NCBI GenBank assembly: GCA_964187785.1
Contig: OZ076409.1
Location: forward strand, 77,688,001 to 77,752,000
DNA length: 64,000 nt
DNA from: Amphiscolops sp. MND2022
Taxonomy: Eukaryota
Direction of reading: 5' to 3'
Shown here in pieces: positions 30,374 through 59,100 of the stretch; position 1 is the stretch's first letter; the number at the start of each line of letters is the position of its first letter. Under the pieces are notes generated by a model that saw only the letters and a program-made list of their open reading frames with translations, was not told where the DNA came from and searched no databases. Position numbers and translations under genes: made by a program.

Positions 30374-31510
30374 CCAGGGTGCCAATCAACATTCCATTAT
30401 ATATACGTCACAGAATGAAGCTTCCGTTCCGAATCTCGGTATCACCCAGCGAGAGATTATTACCCCGACTAATGTCCTTGGAAGGATTTCACAAGCCTTC
30501 ATATTGGATGAAGAAAATGATCCAAATCAACACCTCTCGATCATAGTCACTGATAAAGCTATGCAGACACAATTCGTCGTCCCTTTTACTTCCAACCAAA
30601 AAGAACCTATGATACAGTCTTCTTCAGAAACAGTACAACCAGGCTCTCAACGGGGAAACCGAACTGCAGAAGAGAAATCGCGCAGATCCAAATACTCGCT
30701 AAAAGAAGTATGTTAAGAAAACACCCTGCGCTTAAATTCAAAGCTGCGGGCCTTTGGACAGACAAAGATTCCCATTTATGTGGTCTAGTGTTTGTATTTA
30801 TCTCTCATGAGTCGAGGCACAGAATTGTTGTCCGACTACCGGTCCAACTCACATTTGATTGAGGAGCACAGAATGCAGATGGAGGTTTCAGGAATGCAAT
30901 TATATGATAGAGAAGTGAAGGAAATAGCTGGAATAGCACTACAAGAGGCATATAATGTGGCCAAGGTCACTTACCCCATTTCACGGCGGATGTACCCGTG
31001 TCGAGCCTTTGTTGGGCAGGAATCTGTACCATTTATTAGTGCATCTACAAGCACTTCTGAATGAATTCTTTTGCACATTTTTGTCATCGAAACTGGATTA
31101 ACTGTATATGATGATGTAGTGCGACTAGCTGACAGTAGCCAAATAATTTCGCAAAATTGGAGCCATCAGCGCCTCTTTGTAAATTTCTTTCAAGGTACTT
31201 CGCTGCGATAATTTATTCCTTATACTTCGTGTGAGTTCTTCACTCAGACTAAGCATCAGTTTTGTGGTGGTAATTACTTAGCCAAAATACAATAGTCGTT
31301 TGTTTTCTTTACCAGGAATTCTTGTGCACATGTTCCAAGAGCTCATGGAATACTGCGTCACGATGGCAGCATCCTCTGGGAGTTACTCTTTACTTCTTCA
31401 ACACACCTATGTGTACGAAGTAGCACTTGGTGGGTCCGTACACGAAACGGGCATAAGGTGGGACGTACACACTTTTCCCTTGGTGGGACATACACAAAAA
31501 CTTAAACTTG

Positions 31511-31955
31511 GCTATTAATAATACTTATTGACATGCATTGGTGGGACCTTAACACAAAATCTTTTCGGCGATTTTCAGCTATCAAGAATACTTACTGACA
31601 TGCATTGGTGGGACCTTAACACAAAATCTTTTCGGCGATTTTCAGCTATCAAGAATACTTATTGACATGCATTGGTGGGACCTTAACACAAAATCTTTTC
31701 GGCGATTTTCAGCTATCAAGAATACTTATTGACATGCATTGGTGGGACCTTAACACAAAATCTTTTCGACAATTTTCAGCTATCAAGAATACTTATTGAC
31801 ATGCATTGGTGGGACCTTAACACAAAATCTTTTCGACAATTTTCAGCTAACAATAATACTTATTGAAATGCATTGGTGGGACCTTAACACAAAATCTTTT
31901 CGACAATTTTCAGCTATCAAGAATACTTATTGACATGCATTGGTGGGACCTTAAC
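31511..31955 (+). repeat. 67-bp tandem array (~6.5 units), each unit carrying a GGTGGGAC box
   Basis: Unit aatacttattgacatgcattggtgggaccttaacacaaaatcttttcggcgattttcagctatcaag starting at 31520, 31587, 31654, 31721, 31788, 31855, 31922. Confidence 0.97.
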
Positions 31956-33510
31956 AAAACATTGTTTTTCCAATGTTATTCTTTACGAATGCAACTCGGT
32001 CATTGGAGAGAGCAAAGTATTGTAGCTACTGAATCAATTATTGATATTGAAAAAGAGGAGACAATCATTTATTGCATTTATTGTAAATGAATTTTTCTAT
32101 AATGACTGAATGGTATTTACATTCCAATAACTTTGGAATTTACATTACTGGATTTACACCCCAGTAACTCCATATTTGTTGTACACCTACTGGATAGTTT
32201 TCATATACCTTACTCTTTACAGTACACAGTTTGCTGGTAACAAGTTGACTGGTAAATTAAAAATCAAAGTCATTGCAAATCTTTTATTCAGCCCAAACAA
32301 CGTTATTACAACTCAAGTGAAGTTTCATACAATCTGGATTTGTTTGAAACGATCTCATAGTTCATACTGTTTCTTTGTTATCCTGTCACTGATAACTGAT
32401 CATTTTCTTGCGTCACTGATGGTCATGTTCCGTATTTTATCTTTGATATCCTGCCACTTCGAAGCATGGGGGTACTTTTTCATTGCCTCCAAACAAACTG
32501 CACGGCCAGGCAGTTGCCCTTGCATCATCTCTTCTCGGAATTGTTTCCTCAGCCTTTTTTCTTGATCCAGTGGCCATGTTCGTCGTGTAGTACCACCAGG
32601 CTTAGGCTTCTTCTTACCACTAGTAGTTTTCTTTTGATTCCTTTTGACGGTTGTATCAAATTGATCCGAAATTGAGAGACTGTTTTTGCTTCCCGAGCTT
32701 GAGGCCTGGGACATTCTGAGTGAACTGTCTGCGACGTCACGGGATTTCGCATGATCGGTATTATCTTGGACTGCGGTTTCGTTATCCTTAACAAAACAAC
32801 TTCTGATTACTCAAATGGAGTCAATCTGTTTTTACCTAAACGATTTTGTTTTGGCTATGTTATACAAAGTTCCATTTTTATGTTTTCGAGAGTTTTGAAA
32901 AGCAACGCGACGTGATAGAGAACAGGCCTTCATTGTCTAGATGCATGTTTATTGTGCACAATTTAGATGTGTAATGTTTCGTTGGGAGTATGATCCGAAA
33001 GAAACACAATGTGAACAAAAATGGGTTTGTATTGCTTCAGTAGAAACTTCATACGAAATAAACGAAGATCCGAATTATCCGGATACGAATTAAATGCAAT
33101 TGACTGTACTGTTATCTGAAACATTCAGAAGAAATTATGATTGGCTGGAACTTTTTCCTTTTCCCCCACACAAAGATGATGTTTTTGCAATTATATGTAT
33201 CTCAATTGCGTTTCCAATGAAACAGTTCAGTTTTAAATTTATTCTTAGGGTGATAGTTCAGGATTCAGATACAAACTTTGTTCACACTTTTTCATAATAA
33301 TAATAATATGCATGGAGCTTTAGATGTTGTGATTATAATTATGATTAGTATAACTAAAATTGAAGTCCAGCATGTAGTTTCAAATGGTTTTTGATTTTTC
33401 AATAGATTCTTCCTGGAACCGTGGGGGACTTTCTTTATTGCAATAGTACAAATCAAAACCAATTTTTTTAATTAATCCGGACTGATAATTTCAAAAACTA
33501 GAAAACTAAC

Positions 33511-34294
33511 AGAGTCGTCCAACTCGCCATCATCCAGTGTCGGTTGAATTGTGTCAAGGTCTTTCGAATATGCATCCTCGAGTTTACCGCTGTCGACCAT
33601 ATACAACAATTTTGTAACTTTTGCTAGATTTACGGCATCAGTGTGCATCCTGTAATACTTGTCGTGAACCCTTAAGTCATGACCCAGAAAATCAGCAACC
33701 CAAGTCCTCTGGTGCTGTGGTAAGTTCAAAAACTGTTCTGCAGTTGCCATATACTTTCGAAGCTTCGTTGACCTGAACAAAGGTTTGTTCTCCAGCTCAA
33801 AGTCTTTAGCGATTTTGTTCAGGGCCTCAGCGCTCCGGTAATGCAGTTTTCCACCTTCTGTTTGGAAGAAGTACGTTTCATTTTTCAAGTTGTCATCACT
33901 TATTATGATATCAATAAGTTTGAGTGTGTCCGGTGGCACCAGCACTGGGACAACTTTTCCGCCCTTCCCAGGAAGTCGGAGGAGTGTGTAGACTTCTGCG
34001 AACTTTTCCTCTAGTTTTGTAAGCTTCACGAGCTCATTATCCGCTGTCTTTGCTCGTTCACAGGCAAGACTCCGTTGTAATATCATATCTCTTCTTTTGA
34101 TTCCAGAAACTTCACGATCACGCTTCTTGTTGAAACTAACAAGATCAGCTATCACAGTTAGTTTGAGTTCGGCATAGTTATACTTAGTCAGTGCAAGGAG
34201 TTCTCGCACTTTTTTTCCAATGCTTTGCCGGAATTTAATGATGTCGGTAGTGGGAATAACCAGATGTATGCTCTCATTTTGCTTCTTGACCAAC
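33511..34294 (-). CDS. Tyrosine recombinase catalytic-domain exon
   Basis: ORF 33472..34308; R-K-(K/H)xxR-H-Y catalytic pattern present; acceptor ttctAG at 34296-34295, donor GTTAGT at 33510. Confidence 0.9.
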
Positions 34295-36689
34295 CTAGAA
34301 AAACACAAGGTGATTAAATTTGGGAAAGAAAAGGCTCAAAAGGTTTATCAGCTAATTTTAGGGGACGTAAATAAAACCTGTGGAGCAACTTTTTACATTG
34401 TGGCTTCTTTTAGGGGAATTGTTGAGGAAACCAGATTCAGTGGGACATACACCCGCTATTTTACTTGGCCTAGGTGGGACGCAGTCTAAGTGAGACATGA
34501 AAGGTGGGACCCGCTATAAAGCCTAGAGAAAAACGACTGAAATTGGCTGAGTAACTATTTCAGACAAAGTTCCACCACGTTTTCTTACACTCCGCAACTA
34601 CATATTTCTTCATTTTTTGCCATTTTTGGTGTTTCTTGTAAATATTTGCCTCAATAGTTTTTGAATGGTTCCAACTTACTCGTATTTAGCAGGTGCGGAT
34701 ATTTGAGCCCGCGGATATTTATTCAGTGTCAATAATTTTCTGAAACTGTTTAGCTTGTTTAGATATCTCCTTCTTCTTCCACACGAAAGCTTGATTTTGC
34801 AGAAAAGCAGCAGCTGTTTTCAGAATCGATCCCATTTTTACTTGGTAGGATTTTGCAAAATTTTTTGAAACCGCCTCTTTCACTCTTGACCACATGTCTG
34901 GTCTGATAAGTTCAATCAAATTTGAGCATTCCAGTTGGAGAACAAGTTTGGCCATGATTCGCATTCTGTCCCTGATCTGATTGTAGCCCTCGTCTGATTT
35001 TCGCTTGTTGAAATAATATTCCCCAACATACTTTATAAGGGGGTCATTACGTATTAGTTCTGCAACTGGATTGTTTCTTAAATTGTTATAAAGGAAATCC
35101 TGGAATGGGGTGTTATGATTTGCTTTGATTTCAAGCATCAACGCAAAGATGGCAGCTTTGATGTTTTTGTTTTTTCCTTCTTTATGGCTAGACTTGGTAA
35201 CTGCCGGGCAGTCTAGTTTGTGCCGGTACATGGTTTTTCTCATGAAGAAGCCAAGACAATCAGGACAAGGAGCATAGTTATCAGCTGTTGGATTCTCCGT
35301 TTCCGTCGGGTCCCTGACTACAATCAGTTTGTCAGTGAATCTGTTCGTCTTTATGCATTTTTTGAAAACCGCGATGTTATATTTGTACTGTCCTTCATAT
35401 GTGATCAAGCGGTATGTTTGATCTTTCTCTTTATGAAGTTTCCTCAAATCGCGTTCAGTTGTGGCGATTTCCTTACTTCCTTCTAGTTCTTCTATTTCTA
35501 GATTTATTCGCCTAAGGTTACTGACGCGGAGCTCTCTTTGATGGAATGATTGCAAATGGCGATGTAATTTGGCAACCATTGTCGCATCTTTGATATCTTC
35601 AAAAGGACAGTAAGGACAACATTTCTTCTTTTTGTATTTACCTTCAGAGACAACAATGTGGATCTTCCTGAGATACTTTGAGTTGAATCTCCATTTTCCG
35701 GAACAATTAGCGTTGACATATTGTTGCATGTCGTCTTCAATGTTGTCATAGCCTTCCATAGTGTTTGCAACATCATCTGGTCCTGCAGACGACGTTGAAG
35801 CTAGTGCGGTCTGATAACTACTTTCACTGATCTGAGAAATGCCTTCTCCCAATACCACCGTCTGGTTTGATGAAACTTTTTTGGGTGTACTTGGCGCTCT
35901 TTCAGCTGTTGATGCAGTTTTTGTTTCTTCTTCTGAAGACAGTTCTTCGCTACCTTCATCCTCATCAACATTGTAACTTTCACATGAGGACTCAGATGTT
36001 TCAGACGACGAATCGTCACTGGAACTCTCGCTTGACTGTTCAGGTATGTCGCTGTGTTCTTCAGCTGAGTCAGAATCCTCAGGCTTCGGCGTTAAGTATT
36101 CGCGTCCTTTGTTGAGAATTCTCAAAGCCCTTGATATTCCCTCAGAGAGCTCCAACTGCTTAAAAAGGAAGAATCTTATTCTTTCTGGAAAACACATTTC
36201 GGGAAAAATATTCGCTCTAAAACCACAGTGGCTTCCTTTCGGACTAAAATTGTATTGAGGTGATTTCCAGATTATGAAGCATTACAATCTACATTCTTTC
36301 ACAATGCGTTTGTTTTTACGTGCAAAATTCAGTCAAGCATTCCTCAACCACATTGCGTTTCTTTTCACATGATTAAATTTAACAATTCTAAAAAATTTTT
36401 TAACAGCTTGATTTTGAAATCTTGTGGCACTTCAATGAATGCGGTGCATGAAAGCCATTAAATTGCTTTCACTTTGAGGTGCAAACGCAATCAAAAAAAG
36501 ATTTTTCAAAAAGTCAGTAATTTCAAGTCTTAAACGGGTAATTAATGAAATTGTGCTTACCTTCTGAGGTATTATACATTCGTTTTTGGCTTCGTAAGGT
36601 GTTTTCGGTTTTCTTTCTTCTAGTTTAGTCAATTTGGCATACGATGCTTCAATGCTTCTAGTTACATTCTTCGGTTTCCGTGGTTGTTT

Positions 36690-37390
36690 AGGAGCTTTCG
36701 CTTCTGTGTCAGTAGTTTTGTTTTTCTCAATTTTGCCAGATTTGTTTTGCGATGATTTTGTTGAGATCCTCGGTTCCGTGTCCCCGCCTTTGCGTAACGG
36801 GTTAGGAGCCTTCTCTTCTGTGTCAGTAGTTTTGTTTTTCTCAACTTTGCTAGATTGGTTTTGCGATGACTTTGTTGAGATTCTCGGTTCCGTGTTCCCG
36901 TCTTTGCGTAACGGGTTAGGAGCCTTCTCTTCTGTGTCAGTAGTTTTGTTTTTCTCAACTTTGCTAGATTGGTTTTGCGATGATTTTGTTGAGATCCTCG
37001 GTTCCGTGTCCCCGTCTTTGCGTAACGGGTTAGGAGCCTTCTCTTCTGTGTCAGTAGTTTTGTTTTTCTCAACTTTGCTAGATTGGTTTTGCGATGATTT
37101 TGTTGAGATCCTCGGTTCCGTGTCCCCGTCTTTGCGTAACGGGTTAGGAGCCTTTTCTTCTGTGTCAGTAGTTTTGTTTTTCTCAACTTTGCTAGATTGG
37201 TTTTGCGATGATTTTGTTGAGATCCTCGGTTCCGTGTCCCCGTCTTTGCGTAACGGGTTAGGAGCCTTCTCTTCTGTGTCAGTAGTTTTGTTTTTCTCAA
37301 CTTTGCTAGATTGGTTTTGCGATGACATTGTTGAGATCCTCTGTTCCGTGTCCCCCGCAATGTTGTGTGATGGGTTAGGAGCTTTTTCTA
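36690..37390 (-). repeat. Coding minisatellite, 114-bp (38-aa) unit, ~6 copies
   Basis: SSQNQSSKVEKNKTTDTEEKAPNPLRKDGDTEPRISTK repeated in ORF 36432..37751. Confidence 0.95.
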
Positions 37391-37749
37391 CTGTGTCCGC
37401 TGCGTTTTGTATCTCAATGTTGATAGATTCGTTGCATGATTGCAATGACACAGGCTGAAGTGGAATTGTGAGGTTCTTCGCACTAAGATTAGGATACAAA
37501 TTGGAAACCTTTTTCACTGGAACTTCAGATTCTTTTCCTTTTCTTTGCGTTGTTGATGCAACTCTTTTTTCTGAATCACCGGGTTTTTCTTTTTCAGGTC
37601 CAGATTGTTTGAAGAGAGTTTCCAGTTTCTTCTTCCTTGTCACTGTTATGAAGGGCTCCTCCACCTTACGAGATAATTTGTTTTTGGAATCAGCGGCTTC
37701 TATATTATCTATATTACTTTTTAATCCCGAAGCTTGGGGATTTCGTCTC

Positions 37750-38430
37750 ATTCTGCATGAGGAAAACCATAATCATAGCGCAACTCCTCACCTGTGAATA
37801 TGAACGGATAAACAAGAATGATCAATTGATATTTGTTTCTTTTAATTGTCTCACAAAAATGACTTTTTGGTGAAAATTTTAGCAATAGGCAGTGTTTTCC
37901 AATTTTCAGATGCCCCTTTAAGGCCGTGTAAAATTAAGTCCGTTTACGATACCAGAGTTGGTGGGACATAGATTCCACTTTTTACTGAGCCTTGGTGGTA
38001 CCTCATACGAAACAGTGCAAAATGCATGGAATTTGCTAAGAAACCGTTATGGCCGTGTAAAATAATAGCCTGGTACTTCCAAGTGTGTATTACTGCAAAA
38101 CCGTTCAATATATCGTTACGCTTTGATCAACACTTGGTGGGACACTGATCCCTTTTTCACTGAAGCTTGGTAGGACTCACACTCAGTACCTCAAACGGCA
38201 TTCTGTTTTGTAAAAAAAATCAAACTAACCAGACTGAATCGGGCGAGTTGCCAAGAAGATACAATGGTTTCTACCTTCGTCATCAGTGACCTTCTTCATC
38301 CGACAGTTAGCAGCCACTGCTCTGTCCTTGTCGTTGATGAATCAGGCCATTCCTGAATTCTTTTCGTCAGAAGTGTCAATGAATACCGCTTGTTTCCCTT
38401 CTTGCAGTTCCATCACATAGTCGAAGTTTG
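37750..38430 (-). pseudogene. SET (lysine methyltransferase) domain C-terminal half, split by intron 38229-37792
   Basis: Manual translation: FDYVMELQEGKQAVFIDTSDEKNSGMA*FINDKDRAVAANCRMKKVTDDEGRNHCIFLATRPIQSG / EELRYDYGFPHAE(W)R. Confidence 0.85.
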
Positions 38431-38576
38431 ACGTTTTTGTTGTACTTCTCGGTCCCAAAGCAAATTCAAAGTTGAAGCTGAATTTTTTGCCTCAACTGTT
38501 CTCTTGAATTCTCAAAATCCCCAACATTTGAACATTTATCATATGAAACTTTCGATTCTTTCCTATACCTTGTATA

Positions 38577-39154: not shown

Positions 39155-42100
39155 TCAACGTTGTAGCCACTCCTCAATTACATTCCAACGCAAGTCGCTG
39201 ATGGTTGCTGCATAGCGATACAAGAACTCTGTCCAGGGATTGTCCAGCGGAAATTCTTTACCAGTTGGTTGCTCATCAGATTTAATGATCTGCAGCATCT
39301 CACGCATGGCGGCTTTCGTGATAGGTCTCGCGCGGTTTTTATTAGCCCATTCCATGTAGAGCTGCATCACTATCAAACCTGGGAAGTTTGGGAACAAGAA
39401 ACGTCTGGCCAAACCTGCGTCTAGCTCCTTCTTGAAGGCTAGGGCACTCTGGTGGAGGTGGGTTTCCATAATGAAGTTACACGCATAAGCAATGCTATCA
39501 ACAGGGGTGTGAACAAAGTGAATCCACTGGCTTGGTAAGAAGATAGCGTCTCCTTCTTGTACCACTATATGATAGCATGTGACATCTCGATGGAAACCGA
39601 AGAAAGTGGAGCTGAAAACGACAATAATCAAAGTTGAGAGAACTAACTTCTACTTTAAACATCGCAAGTTTTCTAAGAATTTTCAGCCCCTTGAAGGTAT
39701 CTTGTAACTCGTGAAAAGCAAACCCTTTTTTTGGAAATAACTTCAGTCATAACCTTCAGCTTTTAACAGTTGATGACAACAATCACATAACCAATTACAA
39801 CTTAACATTAAGGAAAAAGATCGCAATTTTTAATTTAAACTGAAGTAAAAACTGAGTTTTCTTTTTTACAAACCTTTTCCATTCACTCTCTCGCCATTCG
39901 TCAAAACGCTGTTGGACTTTCTGGGTTGGCTCTACGATGAAAAAGTCTTTCCTTCCCTTCAACAAAAAGTAAAAAACGGAAGTTCCGGTGAAATCCTGAT
40001 GCCAATCCGTCTGTGCTTCCTGTTCAGTCATCAAGAGGTAATTGCTGATGCCAGCAGTGAAGTCAAACTCTTCTCGGATTGAGGGATCCATTCTTGAGGT
40101 GTAAGTATGACCCAGAGAATAATCTTTTATCAAGTTTGGAATCGAAAATGTGTGTTTCATTGTCCTCTGATGCGGACCAATGTCAGGGTCGATGATGTTC
40201 ATTGGATGAAGATCTTCCTCGCGGAATGGGTCTTCATGATGTTCCAAAAAACTTGCCAAGGTCATGTTGTTCTCCACTTCCTGGAGTGCTGAAAAACACA
40301 CATTTACTTTCCTGCTGCAAGGGATTCCCTCAGTTATTTTACGGAAGGTACCATGTATGGCACTAGGAACAACAAGACCAGGAAGTTTGCCCCTAGCTTG
40401 TCTCAAAACTACAGGACATGGTGTACTTCTCGTCATTCGGTTCTTGAAATCCTGGCGGTTGTTGACAGTGAAACTTTGGGTGACTGGTACTTTCCCTCGA
40501 ATTAAATCCAAAAACTTTTTTGAACCAACTTTGGAACGATTGTGTGAACCCCATTTGAAGGAATCTAAATACGGCAGTTTAATTTCCGGTATCTTTTGTT
40601 TTTCTTCAACAGCAGTCTCTTCTTCAAGAGCAATCTCTTCTCCGGGAGCAGTCTCTTCTTCAGGAGCAGTCTCTTCTTCAGGAGCAGTCTCTTCAGGAAC
40701 AGTCTCTTCTTCGCGAGCAGTCTCTTCACGAGCAGTCTCTTCTTCACGAACAGTCTCTTCTTCACGAGCAGTCTCTCTTTCTCTAGGAGGGGTTACTAAT
40801 TCGGGAGGAAACACTTCACCAGAAGCAATTACTTCTTCAAAAGTAACTGTTTCACCGAAAAGTTCTCCTAGGGGAGGAATAGACTGTTGCCTTTCGGGGC
40901 TAACTCTGGTTGTCCTGTCGAGAGAAGTTGTTGCAGCTTCGGATTCGGGAGAAGGTACATCATCTCTGGTTACATCAACAGGAGCATCTACTGGAGTTGT
41001 AATACGCGATGTGGTTCTAGCTTGCAGACGTCTACATTGTTGATTTTCTTGTTTATGACGGAGTAAATCCCAATGTCTCGTTAATACTTTTCCACAAACA
41101 TTGCATTCGAATGAACCCTTCTGGCGTTCTGAAGCAACAGTTTAAGTTGATACGTTAAGGATTTGAACCACAGTGAAAGGCGGTTATATGGGTAATAATG
41201 AATACCAATAACACTTTTTGTTCTGATGATCAATTTAAATACATATCATTTCCAGGAAACTTCTTCACTTGTTTAAGCAAAGCAGACTAAGTGGGACATA
41301 GACCCCTGTTTTTATTAGGCCTTGGTGGGACATAAAAGTTGAGAGCCGCTATTAAACCTTTCACGCCATTATAAATGCACAGCGGAAAATACAGTAGCTC
41401 GACGCTTCCTCATTGTTGATGATATTTTTGCAAATGGGCCCACTTCGATACTGCTGGACGTGATATTTGAGTTATAAATATCCCTTGGCGCGGGTGGAGT
41501 TCTTTGTGCCTCGTTTTTCATTTTGGACTCGATTTTGCTCTTTTGGATTTCATCTGGATTTTTGGGATGAGTGTGGGAATGATTTTCGAAAAAAAATCCA
41601 TTTTCAACAGCGGCTGTGCCACAACAACCTTTTTTGTAAGAATGGCATCGCAAGTTGATTTTGCCTTTATACTCGTTGTTTTTGGTGTAAATGTAGCCAT
41701 TCGCACAATAGATGAAAAAACCCTTGCGGCTACCTTCAATTTTTTTGATTTCCATTTTGACCTGAAGTACTCGAAAAAACTATTGAAATTTGAATACGTC
41801 CTTTTTCGAACCGGGAATAGTATCTAAATTTTTAGATATTATTCCCGAAAAATGATTTCAGCCATGTCAGTTTTAGATATTATTCCCGAAATCATTTTAG
41901 ATATTATTCCTTGGATATTATTCCGCTCCCCTATAGAAAGCGTTGCATGCAGATATTAAATAATTTTTGAACACTTTAAAATTTTTTGATTTCAAAATAA
42001 TTTTGACAGAAAAATTCTTCAGATCTTATCCTAATACGTGTATTTTCGAAAAGCCTAGTTTTACAGCTCATTTTATTTGAAGTTTTAAAATTATTTGTGA

Positions 42101-45100
42101 ATCAAAAGCATATCAGGGGCTTCAGTGAAATCAGGGGTCGATTGAACATAAAATAATTCAAAAAGTGCAAGTCAGTCTTCAATGAAGAGGCGCTCTACAA
42201 TATTAAAATGCAAAACATTTCGTCTAAAGATTTATTCAACAATTAAAATGTATTTTATTTGTTTGAGTCGAAAATTATATCTGTTCAAAAATATATTTTT
42301 GAAAATATTTATTTTTTACAACCCTGCATAGACCCCACTTTTTACTAGGCCTTTGTGGGACATAAAATGTATTTTCATGTACTTCTTTATTGGATTTATT
42401 ATATGGTTATCATTTGTTTGGGTGCAGTTAGAGTTATAAATACTATTTTTATTACAAATATCATTATTATTATTATTACTACTATTTCAATGATAATTTC
42501 ACTTGACCTCTTAACTGGTGGTGTTAAATTGGTGGGGAACCAGGGGTTGGTAATATTGTATTGCAATGCAATACAAGCCTACCAATAACTAATTTTTGTG
42601 CTTGAGAAAAAATAAATTATTTTTATTTCTTCGATCTCGAAATAAGAATTTTTTATTTATTTATTGACAATAATTTTTCCAATATTTATTCATTGCCAAC
42701 CCCTAGGAGGAACTAACAGAAAAGATCCCTTCATCATTTCCAAATATCAATTATCACGTTTGAACGCCACTTCATTCGTTACAGTGTGGTATGAGGCGCG
42801 GCGCGGAATGTATACATGTACTGTATATATATTCCAATTAGTTTACTGTAAATAGGGGACTATGGCTCAGAGCAACAGCTTCCGCTTGTCAGATCACCAA
42901 AGTTAAACACTTGGCAGGCGGAGGCGTTTGATATGTGTACCATATCTGTAGATATCTATGGATAGGTCTCAGATATCAACTATTTCAACTGCTGGCTCTG
43001 AGCAAATGTCCCCATTTTGAAAAATGTTGAAAATCATTTTTGAAATGAATCACTGTACTATTTCAATAAGCGCCAAGAATGACCAAAAATTCTTCATTCT
43101 CCAAAAAGTGCTCAACGGCGAGTAAAAAATGAACACTTTTTTCCTGTAATTAATGCATTTTATTGTACAATAAATGTATTAATTATTGTTGTTTGAAAGT
43201 TAGTGTTTTTAATGAAAATGCCGGTCAAAGTTATGCATTTATTGAATGTAGGCAGGGGTGTTCAATAAATAATTATGGGTGGGGATAATTATAAAAAATA
43301 AAAAAATGATTTATTTTTCCACTCAAGGAAATAAAAAGAATTATTTTTGGACCTGTTAAAATGAAAATAATTATTCTTGAGATAACTAAAACTAAAAGCG
43401 CTTAATTCAACAGTAATTCAATTTTTGTTGATATCCATTTTTTGCCGAGAAAAATAATATTTAATTTAGCAAAAAATATAATTTATTTTCAAGCAATAAT
43501 AATATTCGAATAAAATATTGAACACCCCTGAATGTAGGGTATCCATTAATAATGCATTCTTTTAATGCAAATCCCTGATCGCAACTCCATTGCTTAAAAT
43601 AGCGAATTTAAAAGTCAAATATCTTTAAAATTGTCAGCTACAAAAGTTTCTTAGACTTTTATGTAGTTTACAAAAATGTTTGTTTGAAAAATCTGCGGGA
43701 AAAATTTTAAAAGTTAGAAAACCGAAAATTTGACAAAATTTCAGGATCTTTTCTGGTAATCCCTCACAAAGTTAAAAAAATATTTTTGGAAAATTTTTTA
43801 TCCATCATTTGCCCCCATTCTCTTGCGGATGCTGATATGGTTTCATTGATTTTTTTTTCATTTAAAATGAAAATCATCAATTCTCTAAATACAATTCGAA
43901 CTTTCATTGATATAGCAACGCGGTGTGATTTTGAGTAATTTCTTGTGAAATAGCAACGCAGTGTGATTTTGAGCAGTTTCTTATGAAATAGCAACGCGGT
44001 GTGATTTTGAGTAATTTCATCTGAAATAGCAACGCGATGTGATTTCGAGTACTTCGATGAAATAGCAACGCGATGTGATTTTCGAGTATGTTGACAAGCA
44101 ATACGATTGAAAGCAAATAAGATTAAAAGCAAATATTAGTTGTTCGTTTCAAGGCAAGCTTAGCGCAATGGTCTCGTCGTATATAGTGTAAAGGTCAGCA
44201 CTCACGCCTAACCAGCAAATTGAGGTTCGATCCCGGACATGAAAAATGTTTCATATTTTGGAAATATTTTTCGATTTTGGTAAAATACCCTTGAAAAAGG
44301 CCTTGCTATTTCTGTTGTTCTTTAATTATCTGTTGTTTACAAATATATACCGTGATGTAATGTTCTTTTGGCAGTTCGTACATGTTATTTCTGTTTGAGT
44401 TGTATCATTCTTCGGCAAGAATATTAGTTGAAACATTTGATTGAACAATCCTTTGATAATTTCAGTATTGACCTCTTCGTTTTTGGAAGCGTTTCGTAGA
44501 TACCGAGATTTACGAGATATCAGAGTAACTTCGGTGAAATAGCAACGCAATGTGATTTTCGAGTAACTTCATTGAAATAGCAACGCGGTATGATTTCGGG
44601 TAACTTCGGTGAAATAGCAACGCGATGTGATTTCGAGTAACTTCATTGAAATAGCAACGCGATGTGGTTTTCCCCAGTGAATTTCATTGAAATAGTAATG
44701 CGGCTTAATTTTCAATCACATAGTGAAATAGCAACGCGATGTGATTTCGAGTTTTGTCTAATGGGGGCCTATTCATACAGCAGAAACTAAAGCAGCATAA
44801 AGAAGCATCCTGATGGGAATGAATATAAAAACTATTGACTAATGACTGGAATAATCTAGAAGGGGAGACATTTTTGTGTTGTTTTTTGTTGTTTAAAGGT
44901 TCAAAGACGCCACTGTACTGTATAATATTGATTTTTAACATCGATATTTTAACAAGATAAGATATATTGAAGAAAAGGGATCTATTTTTAGCACAACGTA
45001 AATCATCTAGACACTATCATGAGTCTTATATGTACTGCATTTTATATAAACCTCAGGAAAGTGCTAGTCGAAATATGTCAAATCAAGGTTAATTTGGATA

Positions 45101-46231
45101 TTGTTTGCTAATGGTCCCCGCGAACTTATTGCCCCCTTTCCCCACCTAAAAGTTTTGGATTTTCAGCGTAGTCGTTTTCACAGTGTTTTGTCAGAGGATA
45201 TATCCCAGCTTACTGATAAAGGGCCACAGTATCCCATTTAGTTTTGATAATGATCACGAGTTTGCTCAATTTCATTTTGGATAGAGCCATTTTACGTGTT
45301 GACCGGGATTTTAGAAGTGAAAGTCAAGTTGTTCATGCAGCGTGACAAACTTCATTTTCCAATCAATGATCACCTTTTCTTGTTCACACAAGCATGGAAC
45401 GAACCTGACTTCATAGTTTTTGTTTGAAGTACGTGGAAACATTCGAAAGCTTGGATTCAATAATTGATTAATTTCCGTGAAGGTGGCAATTTTCTGCAAA
45501 TACTTTGGTGACAGATAAATTTTCCTGTGAGTGGGGTGGGGGATATTAGCAAACAAGATCCGTTAATATATATCAATAATCAGAAATTGTTCAATTGTAA
45601 CACGACGAATTTGGTCTCGGTGCAAAACTGAGGCTATACTGTACAGTAGTGTTCATATCGTTTTCATATAGTACCAGTCTGGCACCGAGCAACATCACCG
45701 TCCAAGTTAATAAACCACTTGACTTGAAATATTTCACTTGAAAGGAATGTATTCGATGCCTATTCTGATTGAGTGAGACAGTACCAAATTTCACTCCTTC
45801 GAAAGAAAATGGAGGAAGCCAGAAGTAAGTGTTTTATGCTGTTATGTTTTATTTTTTTTCAAATTTTACATTTTTTTCTTACTCAAAATGTTCCTGATTT
45901 TGATTTACACAACGTTTACGAAACCAGAGTTGGTGGGACATGGACCCCACTTTTTACTAGGCCTTGGTGGGACGGAAATAAAGTAAACTCATAGTAAAAA
46001 AAACTAAACTAGTAAAAAATTACATTGTCAAGAATTCACATGTAAAGAACTCACTGGGTTCTGGTGAATACAAGTCGGATGCCTCAATTCCTCGCTCTCT
46101 GATTTCTTGCTGACGTCTCAAACAAGTGTTTTTTGACAGGTGTTGCTTGAGTTTTCCAGTGCTGGCGCAAATCAAACCGCATTCAGGACAAGTACAGCGA
46201 TGAATACTCAAAGTTTTCCGTTGTTGATGAG
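39155..46231 (-). CDS. Spliced gene: two C2HC/C2H2-like zinc fingers, acidic repeat and KDM2/KDM7(PHF8)-type JmjC demethylase domain; 5' end not found
   Basis: Exons 46231-46055, 41128-39874, 39611-39155 join in phase (SPEP-K-RQKGSFECNVCGK; WK-S-STFF). CPECG..KLKQHLSKNTC; CNVCGK..LLRHKQENQQC; YLLMTEQEAQTDWHQDFTGTSVFYFLLKGRKDF and FLPSQWIHFVHTPVDSIAYACNF with HxD...H iron ligands intact. Confidence 0.82.
40613..40780 (-). repeat. 15-18-bp coding repeat (EEETAP/EEETAR)
   Basis: agcagtctcttcttc repeated on the plus strand. Confidence 0.9.
41369..41931 (-). mobile_element. Mutator (MULE) 5' fragment: TIR end plus FLYWCH-like transposase N-terminus
   Basis: ORF 41369..41755 ANGYIYTKN..INLRCHSYKKGCCGTA...HSHTH; end GGGAGCGGAATAATATCC with iterated GGAATAATATCTAAAA repeats at 41815-41930. 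Confidence 0.75.
43253..43530. mobile_element. hAT-type MITE with 8-bp TSD AATGTAGG
   Basis: Perfect TIR CAGGGGTGTTCAATA / TATTGAACACCCCTG; TSD 43245-43252 and 43531-43538. Confidence 0.92.
43905..44750 (+). repeat. 37-38-bp minisatellite GAAATAGCAACGCGATGTGATTTCGAGTAACTTC.., two blocks (43905-44087, 44525-44750)
   Basis: About five units in each block; same unit at 62490-62640. Confidence 0.9.
44154..44236 (+). mobile_element. tRNA-derived SINE-head-like fragment
   Basis: A-box-like TAGCGCAATGG and B-box GGTTCGATCCC; no closed cloverleaf. Confidence 0.4.
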
Positions 46232-47837
46232 CTAAAACAGAATGAAGTTCATATCTCTAGATCTTCAAATAACATAAGATCAAAAAGCATAAAAATGGAA
46301 TTAGTTCAAATTTTAAATGGCAAAGCATGAGTTACATAGAAAACACTACTTTGGGCCTCACCTATGATAGCATGAAAAATGAAAACAACAGTCAACAAAT
46401 AATCATTTTCTTTTTGTTTGTTTTCTTCGGGATTTAAACTAAAACTTTTCCCCAAAACTTGGTTTCAAACAAATTTCAAAAATTTGTCATTTTGAAAATA
46501 TTTTTCAAATCCAACATAATATCTGAACTCACCAAGGCATGTAGATTGATGACGCGTGTAGAACCATTGCTTGTTGGAATCAAACTCTTTGAAGCAGTGG
46601 ATACAAGTGAAGGTCATTCTTGAATCTGCGATCTAGGTCTTTTATTGAAGGTGGTAGAAAGTTTACCAAATGTCTACTACTGCACGGGATAGATGTTCAA
46701 CACAAACTGAACCTGAAACTGTAACTTGAATTCGTCTCAGCAGCTCAAGATCGACCAATCACGTATGCCGCATTTTGGTTGATCAACCAATCACAATAGC
46801 CGAAATTTGGCAGATTGGAAAAAGATGATGTATGCTGGTGTTTGATGAGCAGGGCGACCAAATATTGACGTAAAAATTACAAAAGTTGATTTGACGATTT
46901 GTAAAAAAAAAGACTTTATATTGACTTTGTGAAAAACACTTGTCGGATCATGCGGTCGCAAGGGGAATAAGACACAGGGTTCAAATACCATTGTCGACAT
47001 CGTTTGCGTTGAAACTTTGATTTAAGAAAACAATTGATGTCGACATAATTGTATACATTACATTGATTGTCAAAATAATAATTTAAAAATAATTTTTGCC
47101 TAAATAATTCCAAAAAATACCATCAAAGTATTTTATTGGAACGCGAAAAAAATACAAATAACTTACTTTCTCTCTGATAAAATACAAATAATTTATTTTC
47201 AGTGTCAAATAATTTTACCAATAGAACAGTGTGCATAGGATATATTTTTTGGCATGCCTCGGAGTTAAACAGATGGTCCCATTTGTCCATGAGCCAAAAA
47301 TCTTTTACTGAGTACAATGATTAAACATAGAATTGAAATAGTTATTGAGATTTTCAGGCAAAAAGTTTCAATCATTTGCCAAGAGAGGGTGGGTTTATAT
47401 TTTAATTCCTTAGAATGTTGATTTGTCACACTCATCATTTCTGTTTTTTACTTGATGATACTTCAAATTGATTTCAAAGATAATTTATTAGGGGTATGTT
47501 TTTCAATGATATATTCAAACTTCTAATGAATAAAAGGCGATTTCAATTGTTGAGCTGTTTTGATAAATGAACTGGGTTTCAACTTTGAAACACATTTTAT
47601 AAAGAAATTGACAGTCGCGAGGATCGGTTAAAGGAGATAGGGCAAGAATGTATTGTAACTTGTAATTTTTATTCCCAATAAATGAATATAGCATATTCAA
47701 AATAAGAACAACATCGACTGAAAAAAAGATCACCTTAAAAATAACAAATAATTATATTCAAAGTTTCGAAAACGAAGTGTTCTTTTGAATAATGTTTGCA
47801 AAAGTGCATGTATAGCCAATTGGTGTTTTTGCAAAGA

Positions 47838-47912
47838 TCGACTAATACCGAGTTTCGAACCCATGACCTTGCGTTTATAATTCAAGCACTCTACCGGTTA
47901 GGCTATAGTGTC
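47838..47912 (-). mobile_element. tRNA-derived SINE head / tRNA pseudogene
   Basis: Minus strand ACTATAGCCTAACCGGTAGAGTGCT...AAGGTCATGGGTTCGAAACTC; homologous to 51078-51152. Confidence 0.55.
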
Positions 47913-48263
47913 TGAAATAATGTACATTTTAAGTTTCATTTATTTGCTACGCAACAAATAGGGACATCAATAAAATTCAATCAATTTCATTTGAATACAG
48001 TACAAGATTACTTTTTGTAGAGGATAATTGTTAATCGTGTTAATCAAGGCCAATTTTACGAATCAAATACCAGTACTCCTGTAAACTCCAGCTGTTTGCG
48101 CCATGAGAAAATTTGAGCCATCAATAGCCATGATGGCCATATTTGATGTAAACATTTGTAAACATTATGGATTTTCTGTCGAACAATTAAAAAATAATAA
48201 TTTCCATTAATTTTTGAACACCTCTGTTACAACCACTTTGTCATTGACGAACCCCCACTTCGT

Positions 48264-48430
48264 CATTGCGTTGCTTTTTTTTATCTTACTTTCATTATGG
48301 AAATAAGATAAAAAAGCAACGCAATGTGATTTGCGCGCTGACAAATTGTCAACGCACAATCACATTGCGTTGCTTATTTTATTTCATTTCCACCATGGAA
48401 GCAAAATAAAAAAAGCAACGCAATGTGATT
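48264..48430. repeat. Compound inverted repeat of the AGCAACGCAATGTGATT motif
   Basis: Four motif copies in alternating orientation with self-complementary spacers. Confidence 0.85.
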
Positions 48431-49119
48431 CTGAGAAAATCCATTCTTTGCCCCCATGGCCAAGCTAGAGTATTTTTTCAATTCTCACCAAGTATGCGTC
48501 CCACCAACGTATAGTACAAAAGGGGTCTAAGTCCCACCGAGTGCGGATTCGTCAACGGACAAACACTCAGTCACATCGTTTCTTTACAATATCTTTTATT
48601 CTCTTGCCATATACTATAGTTTCATTTGGTGGATTACCAAATAACAAGAGCAAATGAGGTTGATTGATAATGCAGGGTTGTCAAATTAGTTCGCCGGTTT
48701 TTTCATTGATATTTTTTGTCTAAGGCCGCGTGTTGAATTGTACAATATGTCTCACGAGAAAGTTCAGAAACGTGAGCTTATGCCAAAAAATGCTAAAAAA
48801 TTGAAATTTTTTATGCGTTTTGTTGAAATATTTAACACCCCTCGTTTTGAAAGAAATTGTCGAGAAACGGTATTGGAAAAAAAATCGGTTTAAATCGCTA
48901 TTTTCATGAAAAAAAACAATAAAAACGACGTTTTTCTAGAACGAACGTTTTTTTCAACCATGTGATTACGTAATAAAACTAGTATTCTCGAAAATATGCT
49001 CCAAAAAATTCAATAAAAAATTCATTGAAAAAATTTTTGACGCAGTGGGACAATCCTTTAAACTTACTAATTACAGCAGGAGATACATCCACTCGGGTCA
49101 TCCACCCATGTCAGTCATC

Positions 49120-49752
49120 CAGGTTTTCGGTGGTGAAAGAACCAAGTTGAGAGCTTGGCAAACAAGCTGTTGGTTTGGATTCAATCAAGAGGGGGCAATC
49201 ACTAATTTACTTGGTGAATAGAAACAAACAAGATTGCGGTAAAAGTCCCATCAATGCTTAGTAAATTACAGTTTCAGGTCCCACCAAGTGTTTTTTCGAA
49301 AACGTCCTATTTGTTTTTCAAACATTAACAACAGAAGCGTCACGAAACCCTGCCAGCCCCATGAGGTGTTTGGTGGTGAATGAACCAAGTTGAGAGCTTG
49401 GCATCCAAGCTGGCAATCAAGAGAGAGAGCAATCACTAATTTACTTGGTGAATGAAAACAAACAACTGCGTTAAAAAGTCCCATCAATGCTTAGTAAATT
49501 AGTGTCAAGTCCCACCAAGTGCCTTTTCGAAAACGTCCCATTTGTTTTTCAAACATTAACAACAGAAGCGTCAAGAAACCCTGCCAGACCCATGAGGTGT
49601 TTGGTGATGAATGAACCAAGTTGAGAGCGTGGCATCCAAGCTGGCAATCAAGAGAGAGAGCAATCACTAATTTACTTGGTGAATGAAAACAAACAACTGC
49701 GTTAAAAAGTCCCATCAATGCTTAGTGAATTAGTGTCAGGTCCCACCAAGTG
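49120..49752 (-). repeat. 231-bp tandem repeat (~2.7 copies), each containing GTCCCACCAAG (reverse GGTGGGAC box)
   Basis: gtcccaccaag at 49278, 49509, 49740; duplicated ORFs 49266..49487 and 49491..49718. Confidence 0.9.
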
Positions 49753-51077
49753 CAACAACCAATCAAATTCAAACTTTTATCCAATTTTTTTCAACGTCAT
49801 TTCTCATTCCATGAGTTAGTATTGCGTTGTTTTGTCGCCTAAGAAGGACGAAGATTTCCAAGGCTCACAAAATACAATCATATTCATAAGTTCATAGCAA
49901 CACAAAAGTATTGATATAGCTAGTTCAAACGATACTAGCGTTGTAGATTATACTGTATAGAGCTGAAAGGATTCCAAGGAAATCTACATTCATCAGCTGG
50001 TCAAAGAGCACATAGCAAGCCCAGTTTCGAGCTGACATCAACCCTATCATGTTCAATCCCACAGCAATGCCAATCAGGTCGTGTATTCGTCCAATAGATG
50101 AACTGCTCTCAAATTGTGGACCACCGCACAGAAAAAACGTGCATTTTGCCGACTCAACCACCAATCAAACCTCTCCGACACATCCGAGAGCATGGAGGAT
50201 CAAAAGAAGCAAACCCATTCCTGAGACAACCCCAACAACCCCACTCAATCTAATCTCTTCTCTACGGAGTGAAAATACAAAAAGGAACAAAAAAGCAGTA
50301 ACAGTCAAGTTCTCTTTCATAGAAAGAGCTATACTACCGAATGGACAATTAATGGAGTCCGTGATATGTTTCAATGCACCCAATGAATACTGGAAACCTG
50401 GGGCTCTGGACGACGAGCCGTGTTATATATTGAACTGCCGAACAACAAGATAGAATTTCATGTTACTATTTATCGTTTATTGTTTACATTTTTCAAAATC
50501 GATTGAACTTTTCATCTGATTCTCCGTTTCATATTTTAAAAGCAAGCTATCTTTGAAAGGTAGAAAGAAGAGTGGCCACAAACAAAAACTGGAAAACGGA
50601 TGTTCTGCGCTCACATTTTAAAAGAAATTTTGTTCCCGTTTTCTTGATTTCGGAAAAATGATGTCAGTAATCCGTAATAAGAAACCATTTGAACCAAAAT
50701 TCGACTCAGTGCTTAACATTTCACAATTACACCGAGACCACGCAACTATTCCACACTAGAGGCGAAAAGTTGGCTCCGATGAAATAGGCATATCTGAGAA
50801 AAAAGTGCAAGATATGAGTTCGTAAAACTGTAATGTAAGCTCACAGTTCGTATAAAAGAAAGGTTATCCAATAACGTTTTGTTCGCATAACAAAGGTCCT
50901 TTTCGCTTCTCAAAACGTTTTCATATGAAATCAGGCAACAGTGATACAAAAGGAAGAAACTGCGAAAATAGCAAAGGTTGTTTACTAACATAGACAAACA
51001 AAATAAAGTTTTGAGATGCAAAATATCAAAGGTATTATTTTTGTAGAAAACGGTGTTTTAGTATTTTTATCAAAGGA

Positions 51078-51152
51078 TCCGCCGATTCCGGGAATCGAAC
51101 TCGAGACCTTATGGTTCGAGAGCTAGCACTCTTATGATTAAACTATAGCGCC
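51078..51152 (-). mobile_element. tRNA-derived SINE head / tRNA pseudogene
   Basis: Minus strand GGCGCTATAGTTTAATCATAAGAGTGCT...AAGGTCTCGAGTTCGATTCCC; same family as 47838-47912. Confidence 0.55.
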
Positions 51153-51292
51153 TTAATATCAGTTTATTTTAATTCAATCATATTGTGTACACAACAGAGT
51201 TCCTTTAATTGAAATCTGTGAAGTCCAGTGTTTTCTGTAGTCAAGTTCGACAAGTCGTATCTCTTTCACTATTAAAGCAAGAGCAATCGAGT

Positions 51293-51750
51293 GGGGACTG
51301 TTCAATTCGTCGAACATTCAATTCGTCGAACACGTATTAATTTAGCGAGCATGGTATGACGTAATGGAATGGGCTCTTTTTCCTCCCCCCCACACTTTTT
51401 AAAGGAAACAAACTCAACATAAAGAATTATATATGACTATATCATTCAATATTTCTTCGAACAGGTCTTTTCCTTTGTTTTGTTGTCTCCACACTATTAG
51501 AGTAGTTTTCCGCTTGAACAAAACATTGTTCACACAATTTGACTAATTATGTTCGTATTGAGTGTTTATCGATGACTCAAAACAGGAAGCTGTTGATTTC
51601 TTAATCAAAAATGCGTAACTACATAGGGAAAAAGTGTGAACAAAGTTTGTATCTGAATCCTAAACTATCACCCTGAGAATAAATTTAAAACTGAACTGCT
51701 TCATTGGAAACGCAATTGAGATATAATTGAAAGCAAAAACATCATCTTGA
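51293..51750 (+). mobile_element. Possible Merlin (IS1595-like) DNA transposon 5' fragment; ~120 bp of it recurs inverted at 33173-33293
   Basis: GG-starting end with tandem TTCAATTCGTCGAACA repeats; decayed QEAVDFLIKNA*LHREKV*TK peptide; 51628-51749 is the reverse complement of 33173-33293. Confidence 0.4.
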
Positions 51751-57149: not shown

Positions 57150-57675
57150 TTCATCAATCAAAATTTTCCAACTCCTGGTTAAAGATTCTGTTCAAACTCT
57201 TTTTATACATATGGTTGGAACACTGTAGCAAAACTGATAGACGGAACCAGGTCCTTCCTCTGACAAAAGTTTTAGAGTTGTTTTTGCATTCTTTGGCAAA
57301 CGTAAAACTGATTCTACATTTTGTGTTTGACGTTTTTTGGTTGTACAACTCGTACCTTTGAAATATCGGGGTACTCGCTTCAGGTTGACAACGGCATTAT
57401 CTGCCAAACATCGATGTCGATCAAACTTTCTCAGAGACAAAGTTTTTAAATTTGGCTCACAAAGGGGACAAAATGCTCTTCGTGAACGAAGTGAATAACC
57501 AGCATTGTATTCATTCCACAAATTGATGCATCGGTCCGCTAAAGAATGCCACTTTTTTATATCTGCAAGCTGTTTAGATTGTTGCTCTTTTTTTTTCGGG
57601 TGTAACTTGCGCTTGCTCTTTCAAGAGAATTCCACAAGATCCCAAGAACTCGAGTTTTTTGTTTTCGGGGTTCAT
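57150..57675 (-). pseudogene. Frameshifted coding remnant with a CxxC..H.C zinc-binding-like motif
   Basis: Overlapping ORFs 57192..57521 (FCPLCEPN..FDRHRC) and 57154..57348; product unknown. Confidence 0.3.
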
Positions 57676-58964: not shown

Positions 58965-59100
58965 TAAACCACGGTAAAGAAACGCAATGTGATGGGCATG
59001 CTATTGTGATTAGCGTACATGTAGTTCAAACGAGTAGCGTTCTATAATTCTTATCACATTGCTGTAATTCTTGTTCGTATGGATGTTGAAATCTAATCTC

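What the first reader, a model, noticed from the sequence alone, without database searches (positions are those of the whole stretch)
32400..38430. Hidden SET methyltransferase domain spliced in frame to the tyrosine recombinase
The ORF track misses it, but translation across intron 38229-37792 gives GMA*FIND...NCRMKK...LATRPIQSGEELRYDYG..(W)R, the SET C-terminal signature. All downstream introns are phase-compatible, giving a single reconstructed protein of well over 1000 aa: SET, long disordered repeat linker, acidic tract, Cys/His clusters, YR, C-terminal helix-turn-helix-like motif. A transposase with a built-in lysine methyltransferase parallels SETMAR but uses a different recombinase class. 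The usual NH of the RFxNHS motif is ND here, so activity is uncertain.
Basis: partly seen in the sequence, partly recalled or inferred. Interest (0 to 1): 0.8.

Follow-up and report, generated by a model that had tools for sequence, protein, structure and literature searches.

The report
Giant transposon with histone-modifying recombinase
This is a damaged copy of a young, roughly 50-kb jumping element, present in well over a hundred copies in this genome, whose DNA-cutting recombinase gene is predicted to be spliced to a histone-methyltransferase-like domain and sits beside a histone-demethylase-like gene, so the element likely carries its own tools for rewriting chromatin marks.

Summary
The SET–tyrosine recombinase (YR) fusion is real. 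The window copy is dead: a 415-bp deletion removes the start and the first half of SET, and it has one stop and two frameshifts. Sister copies have an open 1,464–1,799-aa reading across the same four GT-AG introns (6 of 15 selected young copies).

A second family, with saturated synonymous sites, keeps the splice positions and a 76%-identical SET. The SET is SETD8/KMT5A-like. The 'ND' is a family trait, shared with fused homologues in fish and frogs, not decay.

The gene lies at one end of a 52.7-kb element (window 31,409 to about 20 kb beyond the window). The genome has about 200 exact copies of each end. The ends have 9-bp inverted repeats, no fixed target duplication and CA-microsatellite targets. 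Next door is an intact KDM7/PHF8-like JmjC gene, also under selection.

It works like a Crypton or Starship and may be Repbase's CryptonV, which I could not test. I found no paper on the fusion or on giant forms. Splicing, circular intermediates and enzyme activity are inferred, not shown.

The parts
31409..31436 (+). Left end of the element: AT + GTGTACGAA, an inverted match to the right end TTCGTACAC, preceded by CA-rich target DNA
   Evidence: Sharp common boundary in 11 of 11 copies; 194 exact genome matches, 0 for the reversed control
31511..31956 (+). Subterminal 67-bp tandem array carrying the recurring GGTGGGAC motif (putative binding sites, inferred)
   Evidence: TRF; motif map
32400..32786 (-). 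Exon 5: disordered stretch plus a conserved C-terminal helical (Myb-like, lead only) domain and the stop codon
   Evidence: 77% identical between families A and B
32787..33510 (-). Intron 4 (724 bp, GT-AG)
33511..34294 (-). Exon 4: tyrosine-recombinase catalytic domain with R58 (34122), K110 (33966), R179 (33759), H205 (33681), Y214 (33654); open in the window copy
   Evidence: Alignment of 84 sequences; model pLDDT 91.5; best folds XerA/XerH
34295..34679 (-). Intron 3 (385 bp, GT-AG)
34680..36155 (-). Exon 3: acidic tract, two Cys/His clusters (CCPYC ~35620, CPDC ~35265) and a helical core-binding-like region; 10-bp frameshifting insertion near 34720
36156..36560 (-). Intron 2 (405 bp, GT-AG), the junction that joins SET-linker to the recombinase part
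   Evidence: Protein conservation between families A and B stops at the donor and resumes at the acceptor, with no in-frame Met upstream in B
36561..37791 (-). Exon 2: SET C-terminal motif (EELRYDYG, ~37790-37767), then a long low-complexity linker of 114-bp (38-aa) repeats; 1-bp deletion near 37748
37792..38229 (-). Intron 1 (438 bp, GT-AG) splitting the SET domain; contains copies of the end-like motif
38230..38456 (-). Remnant of exon 1: second half of SET (ND at 38335-38330; premature TGA at 38344-38342)
38457..38458 (-). Site of a ~415-bp deletion private to the window copy; removes the start codon and the SET N-terminal half
   Evidence: Present in the other 39 scored copies; translations
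39155..39611 (-). JmjC gene, last exon (third iron ligand in the WIH motif, ~39520)
   Evidence: Pfam JmjC E 1.2e-4; best PDB match PHF8, E 1e-10
39874..41128 (-). JmjC gene, main exon: C2H2 finger, acidic repeats, JmjC N-half (HQD ~40000). The spliced reading is open (569 aa); the start exon was not identified
   Evidence: Best PDB match KDM7A, E 7e-11
41369..41779 (-). FLYWCH-like ORF, found in window-type copies and not in the young copy examined; probably a nested transposon fragment (inferred)
   Evidence: Pfam E 6e-5, just under the cut-off
41780..64000 (.). Interior of the element, mostly non-coding and repeat-rich, with internal end-like motifs. It continues to the right end about 20.1 kb beyond the window (C1:77772107) and includes a small RING-finger ORF there

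Best explanation
The stretch is a broken copy of the recombinase gene of a young, ~50-kb Crypton-type DNA transposon, whose tyrosine recombinase is predicted to be made as one spliced protein with an N-terminal SETD8-like domain that likely methylates lysines in chromatin at the element or its target. SHOWN: a multicopy element with fixed ends; insertion at CA microsatellites without a fixed duplication; an open SET-to-YR reading in sister copies; a conserved YR active site; purifying selection on SET, YR and the adjacent KDM7/PHF8-like JmjC gene. INFERRED from YR-family knowledge: the recombinase binds the 9-bp inverted ends and subterminal motifs, excises a circle joined through a short asymmetric core, and recombines that core with a (CA)n target. 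The G or A seen just outside the right end would be alternative outcomes in that core. INFERRED and untested: the long disordered linker tethers the SET to nearby nucleosomes, and SET plus JmjC keep the element in a low-methylation, permissive state (H4K20me1 is the closest analogy), favouring expression or integration.
For: Fusion: open spliced readings in 6 of 15 selected young family-A copies and 4 of 7 family-B copies; the same four intron positions and phases in A and B, with introns that do not align. Homologues: SET in 11 of 43 long homologues and 10 of the 13 that are >=1000 aa; those looked up are uncharacterised fish and frog gene models. Selection: A vs B SET 76% identical, pS 0.82, pN 0.14, against YR 71%, pS 0.77, pN 0.18. 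Within A subfamilies SET has 1 non-synonymous and 4 synonymous differences. JmjC A vs B pS 0.80, pN 0.33, iron ligands kept. SET identity: the top 14 PDB rows for the family profile are SETD8/KMT5A (E ~2e-33; the next family is at 1e-18). GxG, the Asn and both tyrosine positions are kept. SAM contacts are five backbone atoms plus one Asn side chain (PMC3178901, passage), so H-to-D need not abolish binding. Mobility: 194 left and 216 right exact ends; intact copies differ by 4-13 of 2,676 nt (A) and 4-12 of 5,151 nt (B); a 4-kb derivative keeps both ends; the flanks of one copy rejoin into a host repeat. KMT5A and KDM7B are an antagonistic H4K20me1 pair (PMC5542855, start of abstract in the listing).
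Against: No transcript evidence is in hand, so splicing rests on comparison alone. No SET activity is shown: the canonical NH is ND, and this genome's SET lacks about 10 residues of the central insert that fish homologues and SETD8 have, so specificity may differ from H4K20. Intact copies were picked for top YR scores; 0 of 9 reconstructable window-type copies are intact and 1 more could not be read. 32 of 43 long homologues have no SET hit (some may be partial models), so SET may be dispensable for transposition. The linker evolves neutrally (pN/pS 0.98). The His of the YR H-x-x-R motif is Lys here. Foldseek gave no E below 0.001, and Z 12.5 is in the range the tool flags as uncertain for helical proteins. 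The JmjC partner was seen only in this genome; its link to SET is by position and co-conservation only.
Confidence: 0.6

Rival explanations
1. Same element and same fusion, but the SET is a non-catalytic module that binds nucleosomes or a histone tail and helps the recombinase find or engage chromatin targets.
For: ND replaces NH throughout the family; the central insert is shortened in this genome; some fish homologues have lost the C-terminal tyrosines altogether (P0016, P0049). Selection shows function, not catalysis.
Against: SAM-pocket and active-site positions (GxG, Asn, both tyrosines) are the best-conserved columns. Homologues that lost the tyrosines also lost ND, so ND travels with the intact active site.
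Confidence: 0.22
2. The SET is active but on a non-histone substrate, most simply the recombinase or its Lys-rich linker, and regulates transposase stability or activity; JmjC would reverse it.
For: The linkers of both families are 15-17% Lys repeats; the histone-reading insert is shortened; SETD8 has non-histone substrates (abstract starts in the listing).
Against: The linker sequence is neutral and wholly different between A and B while SET is conserved. A third element pairs a related JmjC with a SUV4-20-like SET, pointing again at H4K20 enzymes.
Confidence: 0.12
3. SET-linker and YR are separate genes, or mainly separate isoforms, lying in tandem.
For: No RNA reads are in hand; short 'KMT5A-like' models of about 200 aa exist beside long fused models in one fish cluster; exon 2 reads on for 5-43 codons past the donor.
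Against: Conservation ends exactly at donor 2 and restarts exactly at acceptor 2; family B has no in-frame Met before or near the start of exon 3; length changes in exon 2 keep the frame in all intact copies.
Confidence: 0.04
4. The 50-kb unit is an endogenous DNA virus that integrates by a YR, like the microsatellite-targeting nimaviruses.
For: Large size, YR, microsatellite target and eukaryote-like cargo resemble nimaviruses (PMC10871703, passages).
Against: The interior has no long ORFs; of 59 interior ORFs scanned, only two RING fingers and one chance-level motif hit Pfam; no relative in IMG/VR; no PHROG hit for 7 proteins.
Confidence: 0.02

Closest known systems
CryptonV (Repbase; Kapitonov & Jurka 2012, seen only as a citation in PMC8869645)
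   Same: Animal YR DNA transposon with families inserted specifically in microsatellites (passage).
   Different: No sequences or description of CryptonV were available, so identity is untested. No SET fusion, 34-53-kb size or JmjC cargo is mentioned in the three papers that name it (passages).
Crypton DNA transposons (CryptonA/F/S/I; Kojima & Jurka 2011, PMC3212892)
   Same: YR without reverse transcriptase; no long terminal repeats; short terminal direct repeats thought to be recombination substrates; proposed circular intermediate (passages).
   Different: No DUF3504 hit in 84 family members; the word 'methyltransferase' does not occur in that paper; the element here is far larger and carries extra genes.
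Starships (fungal giant YR transposons)
   Same: Tens of kb, YR gene at one end, cargo genes, short direct repeats; a circular intermediate has been shown for Starships (bioRxiv 10.64898/2026.09.21.753150, abstract).
   Different: No DUF3435 hit. Starships are described as unique to filamentous fungi (PMC13465315, passage), while homologues here are in chordates, arthropods and molluscs. The YR gene points out toward the end, and the cargo is sparse and chromatin-related.
SETD8/KMT5A (PR-Set7), H4K20 monomethyltransferase
   Same: Best structural-sequence relative of the SET (E 2e-33); active-site tyrosines and SAM-pocket glycines and Asn kept.
   Different: ND for NH, shortened central insert, fused to a recombinase, multicopy.
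KDM7A / PHF8 JmjC demethylases
   Same: Best PDB matches for both JmjC exons; H-x-D...H ligands and the co-substrate Lys kept.
   Different: A C2H2 finger stands where these enzymes have a PHD finger (recalled); encoded by a mobile element.
SETMAR/Metnase (recalled)
   Same: SET domain N-terminal to a transposase in one protein.
   Different: Mariner DDE transposase, single domesticated host gene and a different SET subfamily; here a YR on a recently mobile element.

Membership tests
Tyrosine recombinase superfamily | Catalytic-domain fold | tested here: met
   Model pLDDT 91.5. The top 28 VIA rows are YRs, type IB topoisomerases, protelomerases or their derivatives; best XerA Z 12.5, rmsd 4.0, 174 aligned. 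Foldseek best XerH E 1.7e-3, probability 1.0.
Tyrosine recombinase superfamily | R, K, (H)xxR, H/W, Y catalytic set | tested here: met
   R58, K110 and Y214 invariant, R179 and H205 in at least 90% of 84 sequences; the first His is Lys/Arg/Gln in this family.
Crypton DNA transposons (broad) | YR-encoding, no reverse transcriptase or DDE transposase | tested here: met
   ORF and Pfam scans of whole copies.
Crypton DNA transposons (broad) | No long TIRs; 4-6-bp terminal direct repeats | tested here: inconclusive
   Only a 9-bp inverted match; a short CA-core overlap of variable length in 18 paired ends; the one empty-site test used a paralogous repeat with a variable CA unit.
Crypton DNA transposons (broad) | Simple element with a single YR ORF (PMC9406493 passage) | tested here: not met
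   34-53 kb with JmjC and RING genes. Kojima & Jurka do list Cryptons with an extra peptidase.
CryptonA | DUF3504-type YR | tested here: not met
   0 of 84 members hit PF12012 at E 0.01.
CryptonV | Microsatellite-specific insertion | tested here: met
   49 of 54 distinct left flanks end in AT, with ACACAC before it in 29; family B likewise.
CryptonV | YR clusters with Repbase CryptonV proteins | not testable with these tools
   No Repbase sequences available; the review 10.1266/ggs.18-00024 is not held.
Starship | DUF3435 captain recombinase | tested here: not met
   0 of 84 members.
Starship | Giant size with cargo genes moved as a unit | tested here: met
   Colinear 40-53-kb copies at dispersed sites.
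Starship | Circular intermediate | not testable with these tools
   No reads of this genome were available to lay on the ends.
SETD8/KMT5A | Closest SET subfamily by sequence | tested here: met
SETD8/KMT5A | N-H cofactor motif | tested here: not met
   N-D in families A and B and in 16 of 16 intact homologous domains.
SETD8/KMT5A | Active-site tyrosines and GxG | tested here: met
SETD8/KMT5A | Full central (i-SET) substrate-reading insert | tested here: not met
   About 10 residues shorter than in fish homologues and SETD8.
SETD8/KMT5A | H4K20 monomethylation activity | not testable with these tools
   Needs an assay.
KDM7/PHF8 JmjC | Fe(II) ligands H-x-D...H and co-substrate Lys | tested here: met
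   Kept in A, B and the window copy.
KDM7/PHF8 JmjC | N-terminal PHD finger (recalled) | tested here: inconclusive
   A C2H2 finger is found instead, but the first exon was not identified.
SETMAR | Mariner DDE transposase in a single domesticated gene (recalled) | tested here: not met
   YR fold, at least 146 YR-exon matches.
Endogenous large DNA virus | Capsid, polymerase or packaging genes | tested here: not met

The most novel reading that the evidence does not exclude
Animals have their own Starship-like giant YR transposons, and these carry a self-contained H4K20 methylation circuit: an active SETD8-derived writer tethered to the recombinase plus a KDM7/PHF8-derived eraser, used to hold the element in an anti-silenced state. 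The solution appears to have arisen twice in this genome, since an unrelated YR-like element pairs a SUV4-20-like SET with a related JmjC gene.
Probability: 0.3. Interest if true: 0.92.

Novelty: new variant of a known kind. Interest (0 to 1): 0.78.

Why it matters
Giant cargo-carrying YR transposons have been described as fungal. Here a recently active 34-53-kb form occurs in hundreds of copies in a 1-Gb genome that is probably an animal's (inferred from its homologues). Its recombinase belongs to a large, unnamed family (2,299 clusters at 50% identity) whose fish and frog members are annotated only as uncharacterised or KMT5A-like. If the SET and JmjC are active, this would be a transposon that writes and erases histone marks on its own chromatin, a directly testable form of anti-silencing. 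It would also explain spurious 'KMT5A-like' expansions in animal annotations. Near-identical intact copies and defined ends make the still undemonstrated Crypton transposition mechanism (PMC13565253, passage) approachable.

Tried and rejected
RNA evidence: no RNA holder was listed for the region, so no reads were laid; this is no evidence either way.

Circle junction: a pattern joining the right end to the left end found 0 matches in the assembly, which is uninformative for extrachromosomal circles.

Empty sites: the window's own flank is unique; a second paralogous test gave no anchored empty copies; a third flank matched its repeat only from about 33 bp beyond the junction.

SET structure: the model of exon 1 alone was poor (pLDDT 45; truncated domain, 18 sequences) and was not searched.

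Single-sequence PDB searches with the YR exon and the SET exon found nothing; only the profile and the fold did.

Genomic context of homologues: none found in viral contigs or metagenome contigs, so size, ends and JmjC cargo in other animals are unknown. 'Longer' searches with SET and JmjC returned one protein each; the JmjC one is encoded in this genome and the SET one closely resembles family B.

YR status of the third element: profile comparison with this family was not significant (probability 1.9%).

Rejected: ND as decay; SETMAR-like domestication; a viral origin; JmjC spliced into the SET gene (it ends in its own stop at 39155).

Literature: searches found no paper describing a SET-YR fusion or a giant animal YR element with JmjC. 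Repbase Reports, the Kojima 2020 review and all supplements were not seen and may bear on novelty.


Full report
1. Observation. All 39 other scored copies, out of 888 candidates of which 40 were scored, carry about 415 extra bases at 38457/38458. These hold the ATG and the first half of SET. That complete exon passes the Pfam cut-off. The other lesions are TGA at 38344-38342, a 1-bp deletion near 37748 and a 10-bp insertion near 34720.

2. Is it one protein? Of ten window-type copies, nine could be read and none is intact; the best stays open for 1,123 codons across three introns. Among 15 copies chosen for top YR scores, 6 give a single open reading of 1,464-1,799 aa from SET to the final stop. 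A second family, B, makes up 89 of 134 scored hits to a 70%-identical relative and has the same gene order; 4 of 7 copies examined are open for 1,716 aa. In A and B all four introns sit at homologous positions and phases, the introns do not align (intron 1 is 438 vs 3,622 bp), and protein similarity stops at donor 2 and resumes at acceptor 2 with no in-frame Met in B. The linkers are unrelated low-complexity repeats, yet open. This is comparative evidence; no transcript was seen.

3. The recombinase. The exon has no Pfam integrase hit, and only 7 of 84 family members have one. The model is confident and matches Xer/Cre/integrase and topoisomerase IB folds. R58, K110 and Y214 are invariant, and R179 and H205 nearly so. 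The family is large: 2,299 representatives at E<=0.001, of which 150 were listed; atlas clusters are chordate, arthropod and mollusc. No member hits DUF3504 or DUF3435.

4. The SET. Of the listed homologues I scanned 43 long ones (about 700 aa or more); 11 have SET, including 10 of the 13 that are at least 1,000 aa. Those looked up are uncharacterised fish and frog models. The family profile is closest to SETD8/KMT5A by 15 orders of magnitude over the next named eukaryotic family. ND is fixed: 16 of 16 domains with the motif and the C-terminal tyrosines have it, while two fish proteins with NA/NT have lost those tyrosines (these 16 include close relatives, so they are not independent). Between A and B synonymous sites are saturated, yet SET is 76% identical, slightly more than YR. 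Against a simple SETD8 equivalence, this genome's SET lacks about ten residues of the central insert.

5. The element. Similarity to other copies begins sharply at 31,409 and runs to about 20.1 kb past the window, 52.7 kb in all. Exact end motifs occur 194 and 216 times, with zero for the reversed controls. Pairing by eye in the first 100 rows of each list gives 12 pairs 45-53 kb apart, plus longer, shorter and unpaired ends. The ends share a 9-bp inverted repeat. Left flanks are CA-rich (49 of 54 end in AT, 29 with ACACAC before it); right ends are followed by GC (26 of 37), AC (9) or GT (2). There is no fixed duplication. One copy interrupts a host repeat whose 14 unfilled relatives run straight from the left-flank to the right-flank sequence, with only a short CA overlap. 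Family B is 33.7 kb in the one full copy read, with related ends and the same target. Intact copies are 99.5-99.9% identical, so the spread is recent.

6. Cargo. Immediately upstream, in both families, lies a JmjC gene closest to KDM7A/PHF8. Its iron ligands are kept at saturated synonymous distance, and its two identified exons are open in the window. Two small RING ORFs are the only other convincing Pfam hits among 59 interior ORFs of at least 78-95 aa; multi-exon genes with short exons could have been missed. Nothing viral was found.

7. Mechanism. By analogy with YR systems, and with the Crypton model (PMC3212892 and PMC13565253, passages) and the circle shown for Starships (abstract), the recombinase would excise a circle and recombine its asymmetric core with (CA)n. 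I put the fusion at about 0.95, YR-driven mobility at about 0.9, catalytic activity of the SET at about 0.7, and a chromatin substrate given activity at about 0.8. The pairing of a KMT5A-like writer with a KDM7-like eraser is suggestive because these enzymes oppose each other on H4K20me1 (PMC5542855, abstract start). A third multicopy element adds to this: it carries a related intronless JmjC beside a SUV4-20-like SET with NH intact, which a plausible intron joins to a YR-like ORF in one of three copies read (open for 932 aa). Its YR identity rests on motifs only.

8. Relation to what is known. It works like a Crypton and, in size and cargo, like a Starship. It is neither CryptonA nor a Starship by recombinase family. 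Microsatellite targeting matches the one published sentence on CryptonV (PMC8869645, passage), which is the likeliest home but could not be tested. Eight literature searches and passages of two reviews (PMC6431247; PMC9406493) gave no description of the fusion. Repbase reports and supplements were not seen. An earlier scan note reports a decayed YR-SET fusion in a protist; I did not check it.

9. Verdict. A real, conserved and recently mobile SET-YR transposase on a giant element with a demethylase-like partner: a new variant of a known kind. The enzymology is the open question.

Noticed in passing
L205-L208 (G000:C6:37137232-37156842); also L209-L215: A third multicopy element, about 10-18 JmjC matches, with a SUV4-20/KMT5B-like SET (NH intact, E 1e-10 to KMT5B), a YR-like ORF joined by a plausible intron, and an intronless KDM7-like JmjC gene; one end borders TA-rich repeats. 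Possibly an independent SET-recombinase fusion.
   Followed up: partly
L198-L201 (G000:C1:47152001-47186300); L176-L177; flanks of L055, L066, L073, L080: Families A and B repeatedly sit end to end; one 33.7-kb B copy lies between an A right end and an A left end. Their CA-bearing junctions seem to be each other's targets.
   Followed up: partly
L202-L204 (G000:C5:62477001-62500000); similar pairs on C2, C5 and C7: Left ends facing each other about 19 kb apart recur at six loci, with several right-end motifs nearby. This looks like a third A-related composite subfamily with nested derivatives.
   Followed up: partly
L195 (G000:C6:60019294-60023329): A 4-kb internally deleted derivative keeping both ends, a likely non-autonomous element.
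   Followed up: partly
window 37960-38136, 34473-34503, 41324, 45932-45966, 55771-55819, 61007-61069: End-like GGTGGGAC motifs and right-end-like segments recur inside introns 1 and 3 and through the interior; these may be internal binding sites or relics of nested mini-elements.
   Followed up: no
L161, about 9,590-10,000 and on into L162: ORFs that look by eye like a CryptonA/DUF3504-type recombinase just beyond a family-B copy; not scanned.
   Followed up: no
window 3283-25000: Several decayed Gypsy-like retrotransposon ORFs (RT/RNase H-like by eye) to the left of the element.
   Followed up: no
P0016, P0049: Seadragon and pipefish homologues with tandem repeats of SET and YR segments whose SET has NA/NT and lacks the C-terminal tyrosines; possibly domesticated or model artefacts.
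   Followed up: no
window 50016-50453, 57192-57620, 61445-61867: Interior ORFs of 140-145 aa without Pfam or PHROG hits; two have Cys-x2-Cys motifs, and the first is open in most copies compared.
   Followed up: partly
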